From a virus, in the IMG/VR virus record IMGVR_UViG_3300044534_000100, positions 1 to 37,531 of that record: a DNA stretch of 37,531 bases; one strand, given 5' to 3'. Within the stretch, counting starts at the first letter, position 1, and the number at the start of each line of letters is the position of its first letter. Below the pieces are notes generated by a model, which was not told the DNA's origin, did no database searches, and saw nothing but the letters and a program-made list of their open reading frames with translations. A program made the position numbers and the translations under genes. This document shows, piece by piece, positions 2,248 to 26,530 of the stretch.

Positions 2248-3810
2248 TTAATCAGCTCCTACATCATTGTCACCATCAGGACTCTCGCTTTCCTCAAAGC
2301 TGTTAGACGTGTACTCCGGTTGCTCCTTTTGAACTTGTTGAAGCCATTGTTGAGCATCCTCTTCGCTTAGTCCCTCGTTACGAATCAAGAACTGCAATTT
2401 AGGCATAACACCAGCAGCAACAAGCGCTAAGTCGTTAGTTTGTTGCTTATCCTTATCAACAAAAACGCCATCGTTAAAGTGAACACTTAATCCTAATTCA
2501 TCGTCAGCATTAAAATTGCATCTTGCTTGACCATCGCTGAAGAACTCTGGTGTACTAGCAACTTCTAAAATAGCTGTAACTAATTGATTAAGAAACAGTT
2601 CAACTTGTGTCAGATAGCTTGAACGGGTTTGATAAGTGGTTGAGTTCTCGCTAACGATTTCAGTAGCAGTTTTGACTGACTGACCATCAAACGAGAATGT
2701 ACCGGCACTAAGTCCGGTCTGTTCTTCAAACTCACGTAAAAAGTAATCGATAGCGTCCTTATATTGCTGAGTTCGAATATCACTAGTTAAGTCGGTAATA
2801 TTCATATTGTCAGCATCCCCATAGAACTGTTCGTACACATCCATGTCAGGGTCAAACATGAGTGGATGTGTTTCATCATCATTAGTAGTATTGCCGAAAT
2901 TATTACCCGGTCTTAGCATTTCAGCAGGAACCGCAATGCGGCGTTTCCCCATTTTGATTTCATGTACAAACTCATCGTGGGTAGTGTTAATCGCATTAAT
3001 AATATTCTTTGAATTATCAACAATTCCCATACCAAGCGGACTATCTAGGTCTTTGTTATTTGCTCCCGGTGTACGGAAGTAAGCAAACAAGGGCTTTTTA
3101 ATAATCCCGTTATTAAAGGTGATAGTTGGCTGCATCTTTGGATAGAGAGTGCTAAGCGGTACAGATTGACCGACAACATCTCGTTCAGTTGAGCGATATA
3201 ATTCGTTAGTAATTTGATAGGTATTAGTGTCTAGCCACTGATGAAACTCTAATAAGGTGTAATAAACTAATTGCTTGTTTTCGGTTCGAGCTGAACGACT
3301 AGCAAAAACACATTCACTGATATTATCAGTGTTGCTATGTAGCGGGTAAAACTGATCAGCATTAGCCCAGGCAATACGAATATTATCTTGGTCATCAACA
3401 TAAGGACGTGCGGCTAATCCACCTAGCGCAACACCCGTTTCCAAATGTTGCTCAAATTGCAAATTGAAATGGTTATCATCAATAATCTGACTAAGCAGTT
3501 CATCGTTATCATGATCCTTTAACGATATTTCGCATTGTTCATTAAAGATGATTGAAGCCAGTCGTTTAGCTGATAACTTAGTAATGTTTAGCGTATTCAT
3601 TTTGCGGTGTCGCTTATGCCCGTAGCTGTTTCGATACCAGACAACAGGTAAATCGTCACGATAATACTTTTTGGCTTCTTGAATACGAATGTACTCTGAT
3701 TCAGCAATTGCTACCCGTTCATCATCAGTGATTTTAGTTAAACTTTTTGTCATACCTAACTTAGCGCCTCCCTTCCATATAAGATTCTTCAGTGTTGTTA
3801 GAAAGCTCAT
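2248..3810 (-). CDS. Portal protein
   Basis: About 520 aa, lying downstream of the terminase. The start is refined to the ATG at 3810, which is preceded by AGGAGGTG. Confidence 0.8.
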   Translation of the reverse strand: MSFLTTLKNLIWKGGAKLGMTKSLTKITDDERVAIAESEYIRIQEAKKYYRDDLPVVWYRNSYGHKRHRKMNTLNITKLSAKRLASIIFNEQCEISLKDHDNDELLSQIIDDNHFNLQFEQHLETGVALGGLAARPYVDDQDNIRIAWANADQFYPLHSNTDNISECVFASRSARTENKQLVYYTLLEFHQWLDTNTYQITNELYRSTERDVVGQSVPLSTLYPKMQPTITFNNGIIKKPLFAYFRTPGANNKDLDSPLGMGIVDNSKNIINAINTTHDEFVHEIKMGKRRIAVPAEMLRPGNNFGNTTNDDETHPLMFDPDMDVYEQFYGDADNMNITDLTSDIRTQQYKDAIDYFLREFEEQTGLSAGTFSFDGQSVKTATEIVSENSTTYQTRSSYLTQVELFLNQLVTAILEVASTPEFFSDGQARCNFNADDELGLSVHFNDGVFVDKDKQQTNDLALVAAGVMPKLQFLIRNEGLSEEDAQQWLQQVQKEQPEYTSNSFEESESPDGDNDVGAD

Positions 3811-3835
3811 CGTGTCACCTCCTAAAACTAAGGCA

Positions 3836-3862
3836 TAAAAAAAGACCATAAAATATATGGTC
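3836..3862 (-). terminator. Intrinsic terminator between the HNH gene and the portal gene
   Basis: 8-bp stem AGACCATA/TATGGTCT with a 4-nt loop, followed on the minus strand by a U-run (A-run 3837-3842 on plus). Confidence 0.6.
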
Positions 3863-4564: not shown

Positions 4565-5875
4565 TTACCACTTCAATCCAAAATCTCTTTCATTATCGAC
4601 ACATAGGTACATAAACCCATCACAAGTATGGTCATCTTCCTTGATAACTTTAGGATCATCGCTCTGCAATGTTTTCTCATCCCACTGGTATTTCTCATGT
4701 TCCTTGATAAAGATCTCGTTCTCAGGGCGTTTCAGGTAGAAAAAGCGACCTTGTGCAAGTAAGTCCTGCACCCGGTCGATCATATCTACTTTCTTTAATT
4801 TCCTAACCTTATGCCAACGAATACCAAAGTCATTGTAAAACTGGTTATCCAATGCCCCTTCAGCAGAGTCCATAGTTAGCCGTGTGGGCTGTTTTCCGAT
4901 CCAGTTAGTGACTTTATCGATAAACTCTTTTAGATCCCTGGAAAGCTCACTCGGTGGCTTCTTGTGGGTCTTACCTTGTGGACTGTAGTAATAAGTATCT
5001 AGCAAGATTAAATTACCTTTCTTGGTCAATCCATAAGCACCACAAGTGGTTGCAGAAACTTCATGTCCCGTATCAACAGAATAATAAACATTAGTGATGT
5101 AATCATCTGTGGGTAATTTATCAATAGCTTGGAAGTTATCCATGTTATAGATATTAGTTCCAAGCCCGATAACTTCCCCAAGATACATCCAACGGTAATA
5201 GTCATAATTATTTTGCTTAACGGTATTGATTTCATCAATATAATCTTGTGACAAGATATTGGGAAGTGTGACGTCCTTATATGTAGAATGATCGACAAGC
5301 CAATTAGGCATCCCTTCTCGTTGTGTAGCCCATTCGTTAATCCATTCATAAGGATTTTTAGGCGGGTTGTAGCTATAATATGTAACAACGTGAGCGCCAG
5401 GTGGTAGCTGTTTACGAGTAAACGAGGCTCGTACCATATCAACCTCTTGCCAAGAATCAAACTCAGCTAATTCTTCAAACCAAAGATAACGTACATATCC
5501 ATGCGCTATAATCATTGATTTTAACTTTTGCGGGTCATCAACTCCGCTAAAATAGAAAGCCGTTCCGTTGCGTTTATCAACAATTCGATACGGTGATTTT
5601 TTGAACTCAAAAAGGCTATCTACATGCAACATGTAAATGGCCCATTTAATCTGTTCATAAACTGACAACTCAATCGTATTGGCGACCTTACGCATAATTA
5701 AAACGTTAGCCTGTGAATCCTGTAAAAAATCCATCACTAATTGAATACTAATTACAGAAGACTTAGTAGATCCACGCCCACCTTTTAGAACCTTATTTAA
5801 GCAATGAGAAAACAGTATTCGATCAAAATGAGGGCATATCATGTTGTCAGCATTAATTGTTATTTGCTTCTTCAT
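4565..5875 (-). CDS. terL: Terminase large subunit
   Basis: Walker A motif GGRGSTKS, a length of 436 aa, and a position between terS and the portal gene. Confidence 0.85.
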   Translation of the reverse strand: MKKQITINADNMICPHFDRILFSHCLNKVLKGGRGSTKSSVISIQLVMDFLQDSQANVLIMRKVANTIELSVYEQIKWAIYMLHVDSLFEFKKSPYRIVDKRNGTAFYFSGVDDPQKLKSMIIAHGYVRYLWFEELAEFDSWQEVDMVRASFTRKQLPPGAHVVTYYSYNPPKNPYEWINEWATQREGMPNWLVDHSTYKDVTLPNILSQDYIDEINTVKQNNYDYYRWMYLGEVIGLGTNIYNMDNFQAIDKLPTDDYITNVYYSVDTGHEVSATTCGAYGLTKKGNLILLDTYYYSPQGKTHKKPPSELSRDLKEFIDKVTNWIGKQPTRLTMDSAEGALDNQFYNDFGIRWHKVRKLKKVDMIDRVQDLLAQGRFFYLKRPENEIFIKEHEKYQWDEKTLQSDDPKVIKEDDHTCDGFMYLCVDNERDFGLKW

Positions 5876-6347
5876 TTTCTATGCTCCTATCATTTCTAAC
5901 TATATTGATTGTTAAGTCATCCGTTACATCATTACTCAATTGTTCAGCCTTACGTTCTGCAATATCTGCCTCAGCGTTAGCCTTGCGAATCTTGGCTTTG
6001 TCTAACTCTGGTGTGCTATTATCTGACAACATACCAGAAAGCTTCAAAATTGAGTTGGCAGCTTGAAGCTGAACCATTTCAGACTTAGCGCTTAGTAGGC
6101 TATTAAGTTTTCGGATTGCATTGCTTTCATAATCCTTTTTTATTACAACATGTTTATATGCATCCTGTCCCTTTTTAAATTTTGGGTCATTCTTCCATTT
6201 AGCAAGTGTACGTCTTGTTCGATTCACATTTTCAGCTATCTGTTCATCGTTTAACTCATCTTCAAACAGCATAACAATAGCGTCGCGACGTGGCTTATCC
6301 AATGAATAAAAATCGTCATATTGTGAATTTTTGTGAACTTCTGTCAT
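5853..6347 (-). CDS. terS: Terminase small subunit
   Basis: 164 aa with an N-terminal HTH-like region. Its end overlaps the terL start by 23 nt. Confidence 0.65.
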   Translation of the reverse strand: MTEVHKNSQYDDFYSLDKPRRDAIVMLFEDELNDEQIAENVNRTRRTLAKWKNDPKFKKGQDAYKHVVIKKDYESNAIRKLNSLLSAKSEMVQLQAANSILKLSGMLSDNSTPELDKAKIRKANAEADIAERKAEQLSNDVTDDLTINIVRNDRSIENEEANNN

Positions 6348-6870: not shown

Positions 6871-6896
6871 AAATAAAAGACGGTATCGCTACCGCC
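6871..6896 (-). terminator. Intrinsic terminator after ORF 6897..7070
   Basis: Read on the minus strand: GGCGGTA-GCGA-TACCGTC followed by TTTTATTTT. Confidence 0.6.
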
Positions 6897-7070
6897 TTAA
6901 TCATTATTCAGCTTCTCATCAATCATCTTGCGTAGCTCTTTGAGATCATCTTCCGTTGCAATATCTCGAATGAACTTGCGAGCATAGGAGCGATAACGGT
7001 AAACCCGTTGCTTGTCCTTGTTCTTGTCGTTCCATTTCTTGTTGGCCCGCTGCCTTGCATCGCTAACCAT
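6897..7070 (-). CDS. Small basic protein (57 aa), function unknown
   Basis: ATG at 7070 is preceded by GGAAAGG. Sequence: MVSDARQRANKKWNDKNKDKQRVYRYRSYARKFI... Confidence 0.5.
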   Translation of the reverse strand: MVSDARQRANKKWNDKNKDKQRVYRYRSYARKFIRDIATEDDLKELRKMIDEKLNND

Positions 7071-7095
7071 TGTATTCGACCTTTCCACATTAGTA

Positions 7096-7104
7096 TGGTA
7101 TACT
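7096..7104 (+). promoter_or_regulatory. Extended -10 promoter (TGGTATACT) for a plus-strand small RNA
   Basis: Matches TGnTATACT. No good -35 is present. Confidence 0.4.
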
Positions 7105-7110
7105 GAATAT

Positions 7111-7201
7111 GCAAAAGGACAAGAGCTCCTAACCTCTTGTCCCCTTGCGATCCGGAAAGTTTGTAATGCCAGCTAGTCGCTATTTGCGATTAGCTTTTTT
7201 T
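7111..7201 (+). ncRNA. Candidate ~90-nt antisense sRNA (possible type I antitoxin)
   Basis: Has an extended -10 upstream. Stem-loop 1 is 7117-7125/7134-7142 (9 bp). Stem-loop 2 is 7172-7180/7186-7194 (9 bp) followed by T7. It overlaps the 3' end of the convergent peptide ORF. Confidence 0.4.
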
Positions 7202-7302
7202 ATTATCGCGTATGCAATTGCGAAGTTGACACTTGCAACTGATACGGCCACGAGAGCACTGACGATAACGGCATCCTCACGTTTCCGAATATACTCTTTC
7301 AT
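7180..7302 (-). CDS. 40-aa hydrophobic peptide, type-I-toxin-like (MKEYIRKREDAVIVSALVAVSVASVNFAIAYAIIKKANRK)
   Basis: Has a charged N-terminus, a 24-aa TM segment and a basic tail. It has its own TTGCAA-17-TACAAT promoter and a structured ~80-nt leader. The SD is weak. Confidence 0.4.
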   Translation of the reverse strand: MKEYIRKREDAVIVSALVAVSVASVNFAIAYAIIKKANRK

Positions 7303-7388
7303 CCATTGAACTCGCCCCCATCCGGATAGAAAGGCTTGCCGCCGGATCGCTGTAGTCTTTCAGGCGTCCCTTACTTGACTACACTTAT

Positions 7389-7417
7389 ATTGTACATTAT
7401 TAATGTGTATATTGCAA
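7389..7417 (-). promoter_or_regulatory. Sigma-A type promoter TTGCAA-17 nt-TACAAT
   Basis: -35 at 7412..7417 and -10 at 7389..7394 on the minus strand, with an exact 17-nt spacer. Confidence 0.55.
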
Positions 7418-7599
7418 TAGAAAATGCTATTTATTTTTGCTTAAACTAAAGGTCGGCACGCTCTGCGAGTATGTCGGTTTTTCTTTTGTTTGCTAAGTTT
7501 TATTCTTGTGTGTTCCGCATGGTTCAGCATATATAGTTCAGCCCCGCTGTTAACGAAACCCCACTTATTGGTTGATCTCATACACGTTCCTACTCTCTA

Positions 7600-7610
7600 C
7601 AGCTATCTAA
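7600..7610. repeat. CAGCTATCTAA motif, copy 1 (flanked by CTCTCT)
   Basis: Identical 11-mer at 7676..7686, 76 bp away. Both copies have a CTCTC-containing 5' flank. Confidence 0.6.
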
Positions 7611-7675
7611 TTGCGGTCCAACTTGTCCCCTTAAAACAGTGGGCCAACTCGGCCCCTGCTCTCTCAAGCTATATT

Positions 7676-7686
7676 CAGCTATCTAA
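7676..7686. repeat. CAGCTATCTAA motif, copy 2
   Basis: Identical to 7600..7610. It abuts the terminator at 7685..7708. Confidence 0.6.
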
Positions 7687-7708
7687 AAAAGGCCAGCCGA
7701 AGCTGACC
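7685..7708 (-). terminator. Strand-specific intrinsic terminator with a C(UUCG)G tetraloop
   Basis: Read on the minus strand: GGTCAGC-UUCG-GCUGGCC followed by UUUUUU. The single imperfect pair is a G-U wobble on minus but a C-A mismatch on plus. Confidence 0.6.
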
Positions 7709-7860
7709 AGATTGATATGAGCGATACGTTAATCTTGAACCACTCGTTGAAATGATGCGAATCGCTCGTCCAAGGCGAAGTGTTAACTAATCGAGAGTAG
7801 GCTTTCTACACCTTCCTTTCATCAACGTTTGTAAAATAGGTGACGCCTTGAAAGCTAAGA

Positions 7861-7880
7861 GCCAGGAGTCGAACCTGAGC
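7861..7880 (-). ncRNA. T-loop-type hairpin (GC(U)CAGG-UUCGACU-CCUGGC) inside the large RNA
   Basis: Carries a TPsiC-like 7-nt loop. I could not build a complete cloverleaf around it. Confidence 0.4.
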
Positions 7881-7961
7881 TGTGCGCGGAGGCAAATAAA
7901 ACCGTGCCCTACCGAGGACCATTAGCGTGCTTGCGAGGTCCGTGAAGATTTGCAAGCTAAT

Positions 7962-8046
7962 TGCTGACGGGCGGAATCGAACCGCCTTCTCTGGGAAAAT
8001 AATCTGACCTAAAAAGCCCAGCTGCCTGCCATCGGCCCACGTCAGC
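7962..8046 (-). ncRNA. tRNA-like element: canonical acceptor, D and T arms but a 21-nt anticodon loop
   Basis: Segment lengths 7/2/4/7/4/1/5/21/5/4/5/7/5/7 sum to exactly 84 nt. The acceptor is GCUGACG/CGUCAGC, the T arm is GGCGG-UUCGAUU-CCGCC, and the D loop is GAUGGCA. Confidence 0.5.
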
Positions 8047-8511
8047 ATATAATCAGGATCCTCGTCTCTGCTTACGGTTACCGTTTTCCGCCGGTCCCTT
8101 GGGCAGTACTGGTGTCCTGATAGTGTGATCCTCTAGCCGTTGAATGAGATCACGGATTCTTCTGCCTTAGCACGGCTGTGCCTGAGACTATCATGAGCGG
8201 CACGTTGAGGTATTGTTATGGTTGACGCTCATCATATTTACGTTGTTTGAAATCTCTTGAAAGGAGGTCGAATTCTTACATCGGATTCATCAAGAATGTC
8301 CCATCGATAGTCTCAATGCGGGGGTATGGTCATCTGCCACCACGTTCGTCGGCTTGGTTACCGGCTCCCCACCGCTTGCGCTAGACCTGAGTTGCTGTGA
8401 ATATACGTCAGACGTCTAGCGCTGTTAGTTTATTTTGGGAGTAAGTAGTTTAAGGGCTTGCTCAGGTCACGTTTTCGGGTATGTCGCAATTGATAATCTT
8501 TCGACGATACC

Positions 8512-8517
8512 AATATA
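8512..8517 (-). promoter_or_regulatory. Candidate -10 (TATATT) of the activator-dependent late promoter
   Basis: Lies 21 nt downstream of the proximal CTGCAG repeat. No -35 is present. Confidence 0.3.
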
Positions 8518-8538
8518 ATCCCGTTTACCCTGCTTTTT

Positions 8539-8588
8539 CTGCAGGTTTACTGCAGAATTCCTGCAGATTTACTGCAGAAAAACTGCAG
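8539..8588. repeat. Five CTGCAG hexamers at exact 11-bp spacing (22-bp unit CTGCAGRTTTACTGCAGAAWWM); candidate late-activator binding array
   Basis: Hexamers start at 8539, 8550, 8561, 8572 and 8583. The array begins 3 nt after the arpU-like stop codon. Confidence 0.85.
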
Positions 8589-8591
8589 ACT

Positions 8592-9020
8592 TCATTTACT
8601 TACTCGAACATGATCATCTGGAATGATCTTCGCTGCTTCCCAAAGCGCTTCATTCTGGTAGTCATAGAACGTCCGCTCAGACAGCCCCAGTTTCATTCTG
8701 ACGGCCGTTACTGACCAGTGATGATGAACAAATCGGTCATCCAGAATCTGCTTGTAGGTCACATGCGCGTCGCCCTTGGAGGCAATGTAATCTAGGACCT
8801 CTTCTCTGACCTTCCACTCCCGTTCAGCGTTCACATAGTCGACAATCTTATAATCGGCATCGTATAGTGACCCCGTGGGCAGACCGTCCATGCTCGGTGA
8901 CCCAATCGTTGGTTTTTTCAGCCTTGCTTCATCTCTCCAGTCCCAGTACTGAGACAGCCACTTTCGTGCGGCCTCAATGCTTTTTTTCTTGTCGTATTTC
9001 CCGAAAATGTCATCAATCAC
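8592..9020 (-). CDS. arpU: ArpU-family phage late transcriptional activator
   Basis: 142 aa. The N-terminal pattern is FGKYDKKKSIEAARKWLSQYWDW. A C-terminal HTH-like TAVRMKLGLSERTFYDYQNEAL is present. The GTG start follows AAGGGG. Confidence 0.65.
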   Translation of the reverse strand: MIDDIFGKYDKKKSIEAARKWLSQYWDWRDEARLKKPTIGSPSMDGLPTGSLYDADYKIVDYVNAEREWKVREEVLDYIASKGDAHVTYKQILDDRFVHHHWSVTAVRMKLGLSERTFYDYQNEALWEAAKIIPDDHVRVSK

Positions 9021-9573: not shown

Positions 9574-9786
9574 CTATACAAATTCCTTAGGTTTTCTTTT
9601 CCACCATTGTGACCAGGCATAGCCTGCATGATCCATAAACTGTGCTCGCCGGATTTGCCGCTTACGAGTCCGTTTAATACCTGAAGGTAGTGCATAGCCA
9701 AGCAGTGTTGCCCGCACCCGCCGCCACACACTTGGAGGCATTCCTAGCTCAACTGATACACTGGTTTCGACCGGCATTGAATCCAT
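9574..9786 (-). CDS. Small basic protein (70 aa), hypothetical
   Basis: The ATG overlaps the pnuC-like stop (TAATG coupling). Confidence 0.4.
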   Translation of the reverse strand: MDSMPVETSVSVELGMPPSVWRRVRATLLGYALPSGIKRTRKRQIRRAQFMDHAGYAWSQWWKRKPKEFV

Positions 9787-10541
9787 TATTTAATTTCCTC
9801 CAATCCATCGTGCTTACGTCCACGGTTAAACCAAGGCGAAACTGTGAAGGCTAAAACATCGTTAGTCACATAAATCAGTGAATTAACCGCCATTGCGAGT
9901 GTGGCATCACCTTGTGCGAAAGTGACCGCCCATAAAATCAATTGGAAAATACCGGAAGCTAACCACCAGTAGTATTGGTTGTTGTAACGGAAGAAGCACA
10001 TTACACCGGCCGTTAAACTGATAGCAAAACTAATCGCATCAATCCATGGCCGTGGGTCATTGGTAAACCGACCAATTAAGTAACCCGAAACTAAGTAAAC
10101 GAGTAACGTTCCAGCAATCGCGATTAACCATTGCTTGCCACCGAATTTTCGTAAGTGGTTCTTTGTATCATTGTTCCATGAACGAATGGCAAAAATTACC
10201 GGAATATCAAGCGTGGCCACATAGGCTAACTGTTCAAAAATACTCAAATAATTCTTTGCTGACCAGCCGGCATAAATGAAGCATGCTGCACTGATTAAGC
10301 CTAGCCAACCGTTAATAGCTTTCGTAGCGTTAATTGCCAGTACACATAATGTTCCGAGCAGTGTTCCAATAAATGTAATCATTGTCACGCTGGTTACCTT
10401 AGCGCCAATTAGCAGGCACAATTGAAAACCAAACGCGAAAAACCATAGACAGTAATTCTGCACTGGCCAACCCTTTAACTGATTAACTAACCAAACGAAA
10501 TAATTTTCTTTCTTAGAATCCATATCCAACCAACCCTTCAT
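9786..10541 (-). CDS. pnuC: PnuC-family nicotinamide riboside transporter-like membrane protein
   Basis: About 7 TM segments. The W/N-rich pattern YNNQYYWWLASGIFQLILW...NSLIYVTNDVL resembles PnuC. The start may instead be the MDSKK codon at 10523. Confidence 0.6.
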   Translation of the reverse strand: MKGWLDMDSKKENYFVWLVNQLKGWPVQNYCLWFFAFGFQLCLLIGAKVTSVTMITFIGTLLGTLCVLAINATKAINGWLGLISAACFIYAGWSAKNYLSIFEQLAYVATLDIPVIFAIRSWNNDTKNHLRKFGGKQWLIAIAGTLLVYLVSGYLIGRFTNDPRPWIDAISFAISLTAGVMCFFRYNNQYYWWLASGIFQLILWAVTFAQGDATLAMAVNSLIYVTNDVLAFTVSPWFNRGRKHDGLEEIK

Positions 10542-24929: not shown

Positions 24930-26339
24930 CTAATACCTCCATAATAATCTTTGTGTGTGTTCATCAATGTAGACCGCCCGGAGGTCGGTTGGACTTGTTG
25001 GCTTCGAGAAGTAACCCGTGTTCGGTGATAGGTAAGAATTACCTTCTCCATCACCTGCTTGGGCTTTAGCGTCATCAATCGGTATTCCCAAGTCAACCTT
25101 GATCGTCCGGTTACCATCAATCAGGTACCAAGCACCAAATTTATAGTGCGGTACGGCATCAAGATAGAAGTTCCGGGGAATCTTAACCTTAATTGTGTTT
25201 GCATCGGGGTATTCCGCAATGCAATTAATCAGTTTGGTATTTGTTTGCCCGAAACCATGACTAGTCTTTCCTAGGCCATCCCGTTCAGTTCCGATAGCGT
25301 CCTCGTAGTACAAAACCGCTGGACGTAGTGGGTGTTCGCATTGATTATGCTTAATTTCAATTGTGTACCCGTAGAGGAAGTCTTCTAAGCTGTCCGCACT
25401 CAACAAGGATGAGTTCCGTTCCGCAACTAAGCCCATATTGGTATTAATGCTAATTACGTTCTGCTCGTCTGGCGTTTCGTCCTTGTGTTTGGCTCGAATA
25501 TTCCAATAAGCCCCGTGACCATCATCGTAATTATCCCAGCCGTGCGTGATTGCAAGGTCACCATCTATTAATGCTGTGTAATTCTGCATTGCATTAACAG
25601 TGGCAAAGTGGAATGGTCTGTCATGAAATTGTGCTTGTTTGAGAATCTCTTGAATCTGATTTGCCATTGTTAGTAATGATGAATATTTCATCATCAATCC
25701 TTCTTTAGGATCATCAACAGCGTTAAGCGCATCTTGCAAGGATTGCTTATAATTTGCCAGCCATCCCAAAAAGTCTGTTTTCGTACTATCGCCAAGTTCA
25801 GTGATTGTTTTGGTAGTATCATCAACCAACTTTTGGATTTGTTGAGTATCAACATCAGCTTCATCTTGAAGCTTCTTCAAAATATCGTTGAACTCATCAA
25901 TAACCGACTTAGCATGTTCCCCCATCCGAGCGTAGAAATTGCTTCCCATAACTACTAATAAGATGTTAACGGTTGATACAATCTTGCCGTCAGGACTAAT
26001 AAAACTAAAGTAGGCCTGTTCCCATTGACCATCACATTGGAAAATGTTTGCGTCAAAGTAAAGGGTAATTCGCCCGGTCTTAATCATATCAAGCTGTTGT
26101 GAATCGTCCATCTTCATATATGACCGAAAATCGTTGTGCTGAAAGTCGGTACCTTGAAACAGGACACGCCAACCAGTCATATCTTGCGGAAGTGAATTAG
26201 AATACACCCATAGCTTAATATAACTATCAACGTCACCAACACGTCCCTTGAACTTATCCCTAATATCAATCGTTTCATCTTGATCACGTAATAAGTCTAC
26301 CGGAATATATTGATTTAATTTTGCTAATTGTGTTGCCAC
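24930..26339 (-). CDS. Baseplate upper protein (BppU-like N-terminus) ending in FN3 strands A-B
   Basis: The N-terminal region resembles BppU_N. The C-terminus is PTSPTDLRAVYIDEHTQRLLWRY. Confidence 0.6.
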   Translation of the reverse strand: MATQLAKLNQYIPVDLLRDQDETIDIRDKFKGRVGDVDSYIKLWVYSNSLPQDMTGWRVLFQGTDFQHNDFRSYMKMDDSQQLDMIKTGRITLYFDANIFQCDGQWEQAYFSFISPDGKIVSTVNILLVVMGSNFYARMGEHAKSVIDEFNDILKKLQDEADVDTQQIQKLVDDTTKTITELGDSTKTDFLGWLANYKQSLQDALNAVDDPKEGLMMKYSSLLTMANQIQEILKQAQFHDRPFHFATVNAMQNYTALIDGDLAITHGWDNYDDGHGAYWNIRAKHKDETPDEQNVISINTNMGLVAERNSSLLSADSLEDFLYGYTIEIKHNQCEHPLRPAVLYYEDAIGTERDGLGKTSHGFGQTNTKLINCIAEYPDANTIKVKIPRNFYLDAVPHYKFGAWYLIDGNRTIKVDLGIPIDDAKAQAGDGEGNSYLSPNTGYFSKPTSPTDLRAVYIDEHTQRLLWRY

Positions 26340-26530
26340 TATTTTTCACCTCCTCCTAGTTGGTTTAATGCTTCATCGCTCAATCCTAAAGTACCGGTCA
26401 GATTATTTTGTTTCTTATCTAAGCCGTCAATAGCATCACCGATAATTGTAAAGTTCTCAATTAACTGTTTACGCAATTCTTGACCGTCTAGCGACAAGTC
26501 ATGAATGTGTAGTCTGTCCTTTATCGCCAT
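26339..26530 (-). CDS. Small structural-module protein (63 aa)
   Basis: The ATG at 26530 follows GAAGGGGA. It overlaps the end of Tal by 32 nt. Confidence 0.5.
   Translation of the reverse strand: MAIKDRLHIHDLSLDGQELRKQLIENFTIIGDAIDGLDKKQNNLTGTLGLSDEALNQLGGGEK

What the first reader, a model, noticed from the sequence alone, without database searches (positions are those of the whole stretch)
7685..8505. ~820-nt ORF-free, strand-specifically structured RNA at the head of the late operon (GOLLD/ROOL-class candidate)
**What the sequence shows**
- The genome is otherwise almost gap-free coding, yet 7115-8590 has no ORF with an RBS.
- The 7685-8505 portion starts just downstream of the CTGCAG activator array and a -10-like TATATT.
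- It ends at a terminator whose C(UUCG)G tetraloop and G-U wobble exist only on the minus strand.
- It contains several 6-9 bp long-range helices: 8378-8386/8414-8422, 8193-8199/8226-8232 and 8125-8130/8148-8153.
- It also holds a tRNA-like cloverleaf and a second T-loop hairpin, and it looks more G+C-rich than ordinary spacers here.

**Established knowledge (from memory)**
- GOLLD RNA (~800 nt) was described in a Lactobacillus brevis prophage.
- It is co-induced with phage production and is often adjacent to, or contains, tRNAs.
- ROOL RNAs share this prophage and tRNA association.
- The function of both classes is unknown.

**Inference**
- This is a member or relative of those classes.
- Its placement as the first product of the activator-dependent late promoter suggests a role tied to late gene expression or virion assembly.
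Basis: partly seen in the sequence, partly recalled or inferred. Interest (0 to 1): 0.8.

Follow-up and report, generated by a model that had tools for sequence, protein, structure and literature searches.

The report
Large structured phage RNA, not GOLLD/ROOL
The gene-free stretch after this phage's late promoter encodes a real, conserved, folded RNA followed by tRNA-like pieces; it is a divergent and much longer version of a small catalogued motif (Lacto-phage-1), not a GOLLD or ROOL RNA.

Summary
The observation largely holds. 7685-8505 (minus strand) has no credible ORF. It starts after a unique 5x CTGCAG array plus a -10 box and ends at a strand-specific terminator.

It is not GOLLD or ROOL: neither Rfam model matches, even at E<=10.

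The region is composite.
- 8506-8050 is a ~460-nt structured RNA. Its core (8201-8125) is a sub-threshold match to Rfam Lacto-phage-1 (41.6 bits, cut-off 50).
- 8046-7853 holds two tRNA-shaped modules. These are shared only with the closest relative.
- 7708-7685 is the terminator.

About 50 relatives from Limosilactobacillus prophages and viromes show that the 81-nt Rfam motif is the centre of a larger RNA:
- a 5' hairpin;
- a tRNA-like three-way junction;
- an 11-bp long-range helix into the motif's "loop";
- a pseudoknot;
- a conserved 3' arm.

Covariation supports this: 97% of cells paired, 22 doubly changed pairs against 9.8 in shuffles. A model built without the window scores it 93 bits.

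The function is not shown. My best reading is an accessory late-expressed RNA cassette, co-transcribed with tRNA-like modules that probably define its 3' end. A cis antitermination role is the main rival.

The parts
8592..9020 (-). ArpU-like late transcriptional activator gene, immediately upstream
   Evidence: phrog_248 'transcriptional activator', E 4e-24. TIGR01637 ArpU scores 26.7 bits, below its 43.1 cut-off. No Pfam hit. The equivalent ORF precedes the RNA in all ten relatives checked, and the alignments show the end of such an ORF in the others.
8539..8588 (-). Five CTGCAG boxes with an 11-nt period: presumed activator binding sites (inferred)
   Evidence: unique array holding 5 of the 7 CTGCAG sites in the window. 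Relatives carry 4-5 boxes of other sequences at the same place.
8512..8517 (-). -10 box TATATT with no -35 hexamer; predicted start near 8506
   Evidence: Aligned with TATTAT in the relatives. The start site is inferred, not mapped.
8483..8505 (-). 5'-terminal hairpin (GUCG/CGAC)
   Evidence: Read by eye: every relative has a hairpin here with a different stem (GUUC/GAAC, GCAAAGUU/AACUUUGC). Not counted formally, because MAFFT misaligns it.
8378..8455 (-). Leader motif CCUUAAACUACU (8455-8444) and a hairpin domain (outer helix 8422-8414/8386-8378, conserved loop ACAGCAACUCAGG)
   Evidence: In the minimum-energy fold. The loop sequence is conserved and the stems differ between lineages. Weak support.
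8318..8375 (-). tRNA-like three-way junction: closing stem 8375-8367/8324-8318, hairpin h1 8363-8350, T-arm-like hairpin 8343-8326
   Evidence: All 4 pairs of h1 covary, and one T-arm pair shows UA/AU/GC. The closing stem changes compensatorily between lineages; the junction is the minimum-energy fold in 8 of the 30 distinct variants and can be drawn in the rest. The T-loop is canonical UUCGAGU in some relatives.
8305..8315 (-). 5' strand of the 11-bp long-range helix (UGAGACUAUCG)
   Evidence: Pairs with 8193-8183. 99.4% of cells paired, 2 pairs doubly changed. 220/220 cells paired in 20 sequences found with an independent pattern.
8203..8304 (-). Variable insert between the two strands of the long-range helix
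Evidence: Not alignable across lineages.
8125..8202 (-). Lacto-phage-1 core: P1 (8202-8199/8182-8179), 3' strand of the long-range helix (8193-8183), junction helix (8177-8172/8140-8135), P2, P3 (8159-8156/8145-8142), pseudoknot (8153-8147/8131-8125)
   Evidence: RF03004 scores 41.6 bits, E 8e-6, cut-off 50. Every relative scanned with Rfam scores 66-98 bits. Pair counts.
8050..8124 (-). Conserved 3' arm: P5 (8121-8115/8058-8052), P6, P7 (8095-8092/8083-8080) with invariant loop GCGGAAAA
   Evidence: All 4 pairs of P7 and 3 pairs of P5 covary. Model R1, built without the window, scores 8046-8204 at 93.2 bits.
7962..8046 (-). tRNA-like module 1: normal acceptor, D and T arms, but a 22-nt anticodon loop. 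Begins 3 nt after the 3' arm
   Evidence: RF00005 46.6 bits; ARAGORN tRNA-???. L001 keeps the acceptor and T arms but has different, still paired, D and anticodon stems.
7853..7926 (-). tRNA-like module 2: acceptor-like stem, D-like arm and T-arm UCAGG-UUCGACU-CCUGG, with an aberrant anticodon region
   Evidence: Not called by ARAGORN or Rfam. Similar modules occur in the L007 and L018 groups.
7685..7708 (-). Intrinsic terminator with C(UUCG)G loop and U6 tail
   Evidence: Minus strand only. Compensatory change in L001.

Best explanation
**What it is (shown)**
- 8506-7685 (minus strand) is the non-coding first segment of the transcription unit driven by the phage's only activator-box promoter.
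- Its first ~460 nt (8506-8050) are a divergent member of an extended form of the Rfam Lacto-phage-1 family. This is a pseudoknotted multi-domain RNA.
- The catalogued 81-nt motif is its centre. The motif's conserved 'loop' pairs with a strand ~120 nt upstream, next to a tRNA-like three-way junction. A conserved 75-nt arm follows.
- Two tRNA-shaped modules and a terminator come next.

**How it probably works (inferred, not shown)**
- The ArpU-like activator turns the promoter on late in infection.
- The RNA folds as an independent unit.
- RNase P cuts at the 5' end of the abutting tRNA or tRNA-like module and so makes its 3' end.
- It then acts as a free, accessory RNA, comparable in setting to GOLLD and ROOL.
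- The terminator ends most transcripts, and read-through feeds the packaging genes.

The molecular target is unknown.
For: **Family membership**
- RF03004 matches at 8125-8201.
- Every relative scanned with Rfam is a true Lacto-phage-1 hit, 66-98 bits.
- R1, a 166-position model built from 34 relatives without the window or L001, scores the window 93.2 bits (E about 1e-21). The next best hit in the window scores 6.8 bits.

**Structure**
- An unbiased scan of column pairs recovers the helices.
- 62 pairs are 97.0% paired. 22 have changes on both sides, against 9.8+-1.8 in shuffles (0/500) and 2-6 when partners are slid.
- The helices hold in 20 sequences found with a different search pattern: long-range helix 220/220, pseudoknot 140/140.
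- Recurrent U-G pairs fix the strand.

**Setting**
- The same order recurs in the relatives whose flanks are held: activator gene, boxes, -10, RNA, tRNA or tRNA-like module.
- The box array is unique in the window.
- Where it could be judged, a tRNA or tRNA-shaped element starts within a few nt of the 3' arm. These include tRNA-Lys in L016 and tRNA-Trp in L027.

**Accessory nature**
- L006 has the same promoter and leader but no core.
- In phages LR1 and LR2 of L. reuteri 6475, another ~170-nt segment replaces the core and 3' arm, inside an otherwise 96-98% identical leader.
Against: - There are no expression, end-mapping or processing data. The start site, RNase P cleavage and action in trans are all inferences.
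- The relatives fall into only about 6-9 independent lineages, so covariation counts are inflated by shared descent.
- The relatives were found with sequence patterns. Invariance of the pattern columns (UAGUCUC, CCGNGCU, CGGCU, GGCGGAAAAC) is therefore partly built in.
- At least two intrinsic terminators (7708-7691, 6898-6877) lie between the promoter and terS. No second box array exists. This fits a cis antitermination role as well as, or better than, a free RNA.
- The 5' half is mosaic and poorly alignable. Several of its helices rest on inspection only.
Confidence: 0.5

Rival explanations
1. Cis-acting processive antitermination element, like HK022 put RNA or the lambda pR'-6S-tR' arrangement. 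The structured RNA made first from the late promoter binds the transcribing RNA polymerase, or loads a factor onto it. The polymerase then reads through the terminators that separate the promoter from terS and the structural genes.
For: - The window has a single activator-box array.
- Strong minus-strand terminators at 7708-7691 and 6898-6877 lie before terS at 6347.
- In most relatives a strong terminator sits 20-40 nt before the first late ORF with a ribosome-binding site, which leaves little room for another promoter.
- The RNA always sits directly after the predicted start site.
Against: - L006 and LR1/LR2 keep the promoter, leader and downstream terminators but lack the core.
- L015 lacks the whole 5' domain.
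- tRNA genes lie between the RNA and the terminators, so processing there would cut the tether to the polymerase. From memory, put RNA needs that tether.
- At ~460 nt with a tRNA-like junction, it is far larger than known antiterminator RNAs.
Confidence: 0.2
2. No function of its own. The region is a decaying array of phage tRNA genes and pseudo-tRNAs inside a long 5' leader, and the conserved folds only reflect tRNA ancestry.
For: - The 3' half of the region is made of tRNA-shaped modules with aberrant anticodon arms.
- Relatives carry real tRNA-Gln, Thr, Lys and Trp genes at the same places.
- The modules are mosaic and are gained and lost between close relatives.
Against: - The core and 3' arm have no similarity to tRNA.
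- They are about 86% conserved over 166 nt in 34 distinct sequences.
- They keep a pseudoknot and four helices through compensatory changes.
Confidence: 0.1
3. A DNA-level element, such as a packaging (pac) signal, an origin or a recombination site, whose inverted repeats only look like RNA helices.
For: It lies upstream of terS and a headful-type terminase (Terminase_3, SPP1-type portal).
Against: - Recurrent U-G pairs would be A-C mismatches on the other strand.
- Pseudoknots and an 11-bp helix spanning ~120 nt are not features of protein-binding duplex sites.
- It sits between a promoter and a terminator, among tRNA genes.
Confidence: 0.04

Closest known systems
Lacto-phage-1 RNA (Rfam RF03004; motif from Weinberg et al. 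2017, PMC5737381)
   Same: - The core 8201-8125 aligns over the full 81-position model.
- Every relative scanned with Rfam is a true hit.
- The setting is Lactobacillaceae prophages.
   Different: - The window copy scores below the curated cut-off (41.6 against 50). It is the most divergent lineage seen: 93 bits on R1, against 143-192 for all intact relatives outside its own lineage.
- The Rfam model covers 81 nt and treats UGAUAGUCUCA as a hairpin loop. Here that loop forms an 11-bp helix with an upstream strand.
- The conserved RNA extends ~300 nt 5' and ~75 nt 3' of the motif.
- I found no text describing this extension (one search gave 0 papers). The 2017 supplement could not be read.
GOLLD RNA
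   Same: - Large phage or prophage RNA next to, or containing, tRNAs.
- Well conserved 3' region and variable 5' region (bioRxiv 10.1101/2024.12.08.627333).
- GOLLD is reported in that preprint to rise during phage-induced lysis; here late timing is only inferred from the promoter.
   Different: - No match to the Rfam model at any threshold tried.
- Shorter: ~460 nt conserved.
- Unrelated helices.
ROOL RNA
   Same: - Multi-junction, pseudoknotted RNA of ~580 nt in prophages near tRNAs (PMC5737381 section 18).
- Similar size class and setting.
   Different: - No match to the Rfam model.
- Narrow host range so far: every named host among the relatives is Limosilactobacillus, plus two uncultured 'Lactobacillus sp.' genomes.
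RNase P-defined 3' ends next to tRNA-like elements (MALAT1-mascRNA; polycistronic tRNA precursors) - from memory
   Same: A tRNA or tRNA-shaped module starts 0-3 nt after the structured RNA.
   Different: Cleavage has not been tested here. Module 1 has a 22-nt anticodon loop.
HK022 put RNA and the lambda pR'-6S RNA-tR' arrangement - from memory
   Same: The order is late promoter, structured RNA, terminator, late genes.
   Different: Put RNA is two ~35-nt stem-loops. Here the RNA is ~460 nt, and it is absent from some relatives that keep the same leader.

Membership tests
GOLLD (Rfam) | Match to the family covariance model | tested here: not met
   No hit in the window at gathering thresholds, nor in 6900-8800 at E<=10 with lax filters.
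ROOL (Rfam) | Match to the family covariance model | tested here: not met
   Same searches, no hit.
GOLLD/ROOL | Phage or prophage setting next to tRNAs | tested here: met
   tRNA-like modules at 8046-7853. tRNA genes sit at the same place in relatives. This feature is shared but does not define the family.
GOLLD/ROOL | Homo-oligomeric RNA cage | not testable with these tools
   Needs cryo-EM or mass photometry.
Lacto-phage-1 (RF03004) | Score at or above the curated gathering cut-off of 50 bits | tested here: not met
   41.6 bits, E 8e-6, full-length alignment 1-81.
Lacto-phage-1 (RF03004) | Homology to true members, judged by an independent model and by gene order | tested here: met
   R1, built from 34 relatives without the window or its nearest relative (the relatives scanned with Rfam score 66-98 bits), scores the window 93.2 bits, E about 1e-21. 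The gene order is the same.
Lacto-phage-1 (RF03004) | P3 hairpin whose loop pairs with the 3' tail (pseudoknot) | tested here: met
   8153-8147/8131-8125. 99% of cells paired, with GUAAUC/GAUUAC, GCAAUC/GAUUGC and GUGAUC/GAUCAC variants.
tRNA (RF00005), for 7962-8046 | Cloverleaf scoring above the 29-bit cut-off | tested here: met
   46.6 bits.
tRNA (RF00005), for 7962-8046 | 7-nt anticodon loop with a readable anticodon | tested here: not met
   17-nt insertion giving a 22-nt loop. ARAGORN reports tRNA-???. It is therefore tRNA-like, not a decoding tRNA.
Processive antiterminator RNA (put-like) | Makes RNA polymerase resistant to terminators, acting in cis | not testable with these tools
   Only the arrangement is compatible.

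The most novel reading that the evidence does not exclude
The extended Lacto-phage-1 RNA is a third class of large, ornate phage RNA alongside GOLLD and ROOL.
- It is a ~450-nt fold with two pseudoknots and a built-in tRNA-like junction.
- It is made as the first product of the ArpU-type late promoter, as a swappable cassette in a leader full of tRNA and tRNA-mimic modules.
- It acts on tRNA or translation-related machinery, for example by sequestering or decoying tRNA-directed host factors, or by assembling into a higher-order particle.
- Because relatives sit in the culturable, inducible host L. reuteri, the unknown function of this kind of RNA would become testable by genetics.
Probability: 0.25. 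Interest if true: 0.8.

Novelty: new variant of a known kind. Interest (0 to 1): 0.58.

Why it matters
- GOLLD and ROOL are among the largest bacterial and phage RNAs of unknown function. Their only consistent clue is that they sit in prophages beside tRNAs.
- This locus adds an unrelated RNA with the same clue and a defined position: the first transcript from the activator-dependent late promoter, directly abutting tRNA-like modules.
- It shows that a catalogued 81-nt 'sRNA' motif is really the core of a ~450-nt multi-domain RNA.
- Nature has supplied comparison cases: a relative without the cassette (L006), one without the 5' domain (L015), and the studied L. reuteri 6475 phages LR1 and LR2, which carry a different cassette in the same slot.
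- This gives a tractable way to ask what such RNAs do.
- It would also improve annotation. Rfam misses the divergent copies and the full extent of the RNA.

Tried and rejected
- **GOLLD/ROOL membership:** rejected, no model match.
- **BLAST of 7600-8620 against deposited phages:** no match. The terminase-portal region also has no close deposited relative.
- **Chance pattern matches:** L002, L023, L028 and L029. L002's match lies inside an ORF, the other three lack the core sequence, and none is hit by R1.
- **Profile search for ArpU loci:** failed, because the protein alignment had no stretch conserved enough. I therefore could not survey what occupies the ArpU-terS slot in other phage groups.
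- **LR1/LR2 of L. reuteri 6475:** expected to carry the RNA, but they do not. They share the leader and three-way junction and carry another cassette in its place.
- **Antisense target search within the phage:** only one 14-nt match, from the expanded anticodon loop (8009-7996) to 26396-26409, with about 0.1 expected by chance. Too weak to use.
- **My simple screen for tRNA-shaped elements** has a high chance rate by my own estimate. Only the top-scoring cases and those confirmed by Rfam or ARAGORN are used.
- **My own error:** in A5 and R1 I set helix P5a one column out of register, so helix 6 is 39% paired. The correct register was tested (94%).
- **Not formally counted:** the acceptor-like stem, P1 and the 5' hairpin, because MAFFT misaligns them. 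They rest on per-sequence folds and inspection.
rejected as not conserved.
Full report
**1. What is in the window**

The window is a ~37.5-kb temperate siphovirus-type genome, with nearly all genes on the minus strand. Pfam and PHROGs place these genes:
- terS at 5853-6347;
- terL (Terminase_3) at 4565-5875;
- an SPP1-type portal at 2248-3849.

The ORF at 8592-9020 matches phrog_248 'transcriptional activator' (E 4e-24). It matches the ArpU family model TIGR01637 only weakly, at 26.7 bits against a cut-off of 43.1.

Directly after its stop codon come five CTGCAG boxes at 8539-8588, exactly 11 nt apart. These are 5 of the 7 CTGCAG sites in the whole window. TATATT follows at 8517-8512, with no -35 hexamer.

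A C(UUCG)G hairpin with a U6 tail at 7708-7685 is called as a terminator on the minus strand only.

Between these points the only ORF (7806-8048, 80 aa) overlaps tRNA-like sequence and is interrupted in the closest relative. G+C is 0.49-0.51 there, against 0.43-0.45 in the adjacent windows and mostly 0.36-0.47 elsewhere.

7115-8590 is not free of ORFs with a ribosome-binding site: 7441-7581 (46 aa) has an AGGA site and protein-level relatives in L008 and L013.

**2.

Rfam 15 gave no hit above gathering thresholds anywhere in the window. With lax filters and E<=10 on 6900-8800, neither GOLLD nor ROOL appeared. Two matches were meaningful:
- tRNA (RF00005), 46.6 bits at 7962-8046. It has a 17-nt insertion in the anticodon loop, and ARAGORN calls it 'tRNA-???'.
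- Lacto-phage-1 (RF03004), 41.6 bits, E 8e-6, over the full model at 8125-8201. This is below the 50-bit cut-off.

**3. Relatives**

Deposited phages hold nothing similar to the region. Two pattern scans of public collections found relatives.
- A pattern from the core found relatives in IMG/VR, in GTDB genomes (Limosilactobacillus vaginalis, L. albertensis, L. urinaemulieris and two uncultured Lactobacillus MAGs) and in metagenomes.
- A second pattern, taken from the 3' arm only, found 25 more IMG/VR loci with variant cores.
- Four pattern matches were chance hits.

Every relative I scanned with Rfam is a true Lacto-phage-1 hit, 66-98 bits.

I built a 166-position model, R1, from 34 distinct relatives, leaving out the window and its nearest relative.
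- It scores window 8046-8204 (minus) at 93.2 bits, E about 1e-21. The next best hit in the window scores 6.8 bits.
- It hits 51 of the 56 sequences held at that point.
- The window lineage (window, L001, L003) is among the lowest-scoring: 93-99 bits, alongside the truncated L005/L014 copy (93.5), against 143-192 for all other relatives.

**4. Anatomy of the conserved RNA**

The relatives whose flanks are held share one order:
1. the end of an ArpU-like gene;
2. 4-5 direct boxes about 11 nt apart, whose sequence differs between phages;
3. a -10 box;
4. a 5' hairpin;
5. a leader motif, CCUUAAACU(A/G)CU;
6. a hairpin domain;
7. a tRNA-like three-way junction;
8. (A/G)UUGAGACUA;
9. a variable insert of 60-130 nt;
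10. the Lacto-phage-1 core;
11. a conserved 75-nt arm.

An unbiased scan of all column pairs in the 18-sequence alignment A3 picked out these helices (window coordinates):

| Helix | Window coordinates |
|---|---|
| P7 | 8095-8092 / 8083-8080 |
| h1 | 8363-8360 / 8353-8350 |
| P5 | 8120-8115 / 8058-8053 |
| Pseudoknot | 8153-8147 / 8131-8125 |
| Long-range helix (11 bp) | 8315-8305 / 8193-8183 |
| T-arm-like hairpin | 8343-8339 / 8330-8326 |
| P3 | 8159-8156 / 8145-8142 |

The formal count on 62 pairs gave:
- 97.0% of cells paired;
- 22 pairs changed on both sides, against 9.8+-1.8 in shuffles (0 of 500 reach it) and 2-6 when partners are slid by 1-3 columns.

In the 20 sequences found with the independent pattern, the helices hold:

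| Helix | Cells paired |
|---|---|
| Long-range helix | 220/220 |
| Pseudoknot | 140/140 |
| P3 | 80/80 |
| P7 | 80/80 |
| P6 | 97.5% |
| P5a | 93.8% |
| h1 | 90% |

The long-range helix uses the conserved nucleotides that the Rfam model draws as a hairpin loop. With P1 it forms an H-type pseudoknot.

The closing stem of the three-way junction changes compensatorily between lineages:
- GCGG-GGG / CCCCCGC;
- GCGUAA / UUACGC;
- GCGGAA / UUCCGC;
- GUGGA / UCCAC;
- GUGAAU / AUUCAC;
- GCGGAU / AUCCGC.

The junction is the minimum-energy fold in 8 of the 30 distinct variants and can be drawn in the rest. Some members have a canonical UUCGAGU T-loop. Recurrent U-G pairs fix the transcribed strand.

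Caveats:
- The relatives form only about 6-9 independent lineages.
- The columns used in the search patterns are invariant by ascertainment.
- The 5' hairpin, P1 and the closing stem rest on inspection, because MAFFT misaligns them.
- I set P5a one column out of register in A5 and R1 (helix 6).
- Single-sequence folding gives z = -2.21 for the minus strand and -1.36 for the plus strand.

**5.

8046-7690 is shared only with L001, L003 and L004. It contains:
- tRNA-like module 1 (8046-7962);
- a spacer hairpin;
- tRNA-like module 2 (7926-7853);
- two further hairpins;
- the terminator.

L001 has the same frame with a true tRNA-Gln and a 'tRNA-Thr' inserted. Its copy of module 1 keeps the acceptor and T arms but has different, still paired, D and anticodon stems.

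Other relatives carry tRNA-Lys, Trp or Gln genes, or tRNA-shaped modules with non-canonical GGCAGUU loops, starting within a few nt of the 3' arm. My simple screen has a high chance rate. I rely only on its perfect-scoring cases and on calls confirmed by Rfam or ARAGORN.

In most relatives 450-780 nt of further non-coding, mosaic sequence runs to a strong terminator just before the first late ORF.

**6. Natural variants**

- L006 has the same boxes, -10 and leader as L005, but goes straight to tRNA-like modules. R1 does not hit it.
- L015 lacks the whole 5' domain.
- L005 and L014 have a truncated 3' arm.
- Phages LR1 and LR2 of L. reuteri ATCC PTA 6475 carry a 58.5% identical activator gene, left unannotated in both records. 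Their promoter, leader and three-way junction are 96-98% identical to L035 and L043. Between the junction and the first tRNA-like module they hold an unrelated ~170-nt segment instead of the core and 3' arm. R1, Rfam and ARAGORN find nothing there.

The core and 3' arm therefore behave as a swappable cassette in a modular non-coding leader.

**7. Mechanism**

Shown:
- a conserved, strand-specific, pseudoknotted RNA fold;
- a fixed position after a unique box-plus--10 promoter;
- direct abutment to tRNA or tRNA-like modules;
- a terminator;
- dispensability in some relatives.

Inferred:
- activation by the ArpU-like protein (the boxes differ between relatives, as expected if each activator has its own site, but I did not test the pairing);
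- a start near 8506;
- a 3' end made by RNase P at 8046/8047;
- action as a free accessory RNA.

The main rival is cis antitermination. It is supported by two or more terminators between the only box array and terS. It is weakened by the natural variants and by the tRNA genes in between. A decaying tRNA array and a DNA-level signal are unlikely, for the reasons listed under rival explanations.

**8. Comparison with known families, and novelty**

Compared with GOLLD and ROOL (PMC5737381 section 18; bioRxiv 10.1101/2024.12.08.627333), this RNA shares the setting: prophage, tRNA neighbours, a conserved 3' part with a variable 5' part, and probable late expression. It does not share sequence or fold.

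It is best filed as a divergent member of Lacto-phage-1. The added finding is that the family is a ~450-nt multi-domain RNA and not an 81-nt sRNA. I found no paper text on Lacto-phage-1, and the 2017 supplement could not be read. The extension may therefore have been noted there; this is unverified.

**9. Verdict**

This is a real feature. The GOLLD/ROOL label is wrong, and the size given is a composite of a conserved RNA and a variable tail. I rate it a new variant of a known kind, of moderate to high interest.

Noticed in passing
window 7180-7302 (-), with 7389-7417 (-), 7076-7104 (+) and 7171-7195 (+): A 40-aa hydrophobic ORF (MKEYIRKREDAVIVSALVAVSVASVNFAIAYAIIKKANRK) has its own sigma-70-like promoter. 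A convergent plus-strand promoter-like site and a plus-strand terminator overlap its 3' end. This is the layout of a type I toxin with an antisense RNA. It matches no family in Pfam, NCBIfam or PHROGs.
   Followed up: partly
window 7441-7581 (-): A 46-aa basic ORF with an AGGA ribosome-binding site. It has 59-63% identical relatives downstream of the RNA region in L008 and L013, so it is probably a real small late gene.
   Followed up: partly
window 9786-10541 (-): A phage-borne nicotinamide mononucleotide transporter (PF04973, E 5.9e-30) lies in the early region. It may be an auxiliary gene linked to NAD metabolism.
   Followed up: no
window 8539-8588, and the same place in L005, L007, L013, L015, L027, L031 and L037: The 4-5 direct boxes before the -10 differ between relatives: CTGCAG, TGGCGG, TG(T)CCGG, TGCGG, GUACAG-type, GTGAAC, RGGGA. 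Spacing is always about 11 nt. The adjacent activator proteins also diverge, to 18-58% identity with the window's. This looks like repeated swaps of activator and site specificity.
   Followed up: partly
L058 (phage LR1) 3001-3405 and 3405-4635; L059 (phage LR2) likewise: In both deposited L. reuteri 6475 phage genomes the ArpU-like gene is unannotated. It is followed by a 0.9-1.2-kb unannotated gap that holds the shared leader, the three-way junction, an unknown ~170-nt cassette and D-arm-less tRNA-like modules.
   Followed up: partly
window 7996-8009 (-) against 26396-26409: The expanded anticodon loop of tRNA-like module 1 (GGUCAGAUUAUUUU) is complementary to 14 nt of a same-sense intergenic stretch upstream of the gene that starts at 26339. 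About 0.1 such matches are expected by chance.
   Followed up: no
L007, L009, L011, L034-L036, L042 and others, just 3' of the conserved arm; window 8343-8326: A recurring family of tRNA-shaped modules carries GGCAGUU or GGCAGAUG in place of the T-loop. Their closing stems covary: GUGAAUA/UGUUCAC against UGCGAAU/AUUCGCA.
   Followed up: partly
window 6877-6898 (-); L016 and L025: The terminator AAGGCGGUAGCGAUACCGUCUU before the terS module recurs in almost the same form in L016 and L025. In relatives, the stretch between the RNA's terminator and terS holds variable, unannotated genes. It looks like a hot spot for accessory genes.
   Followed up: no
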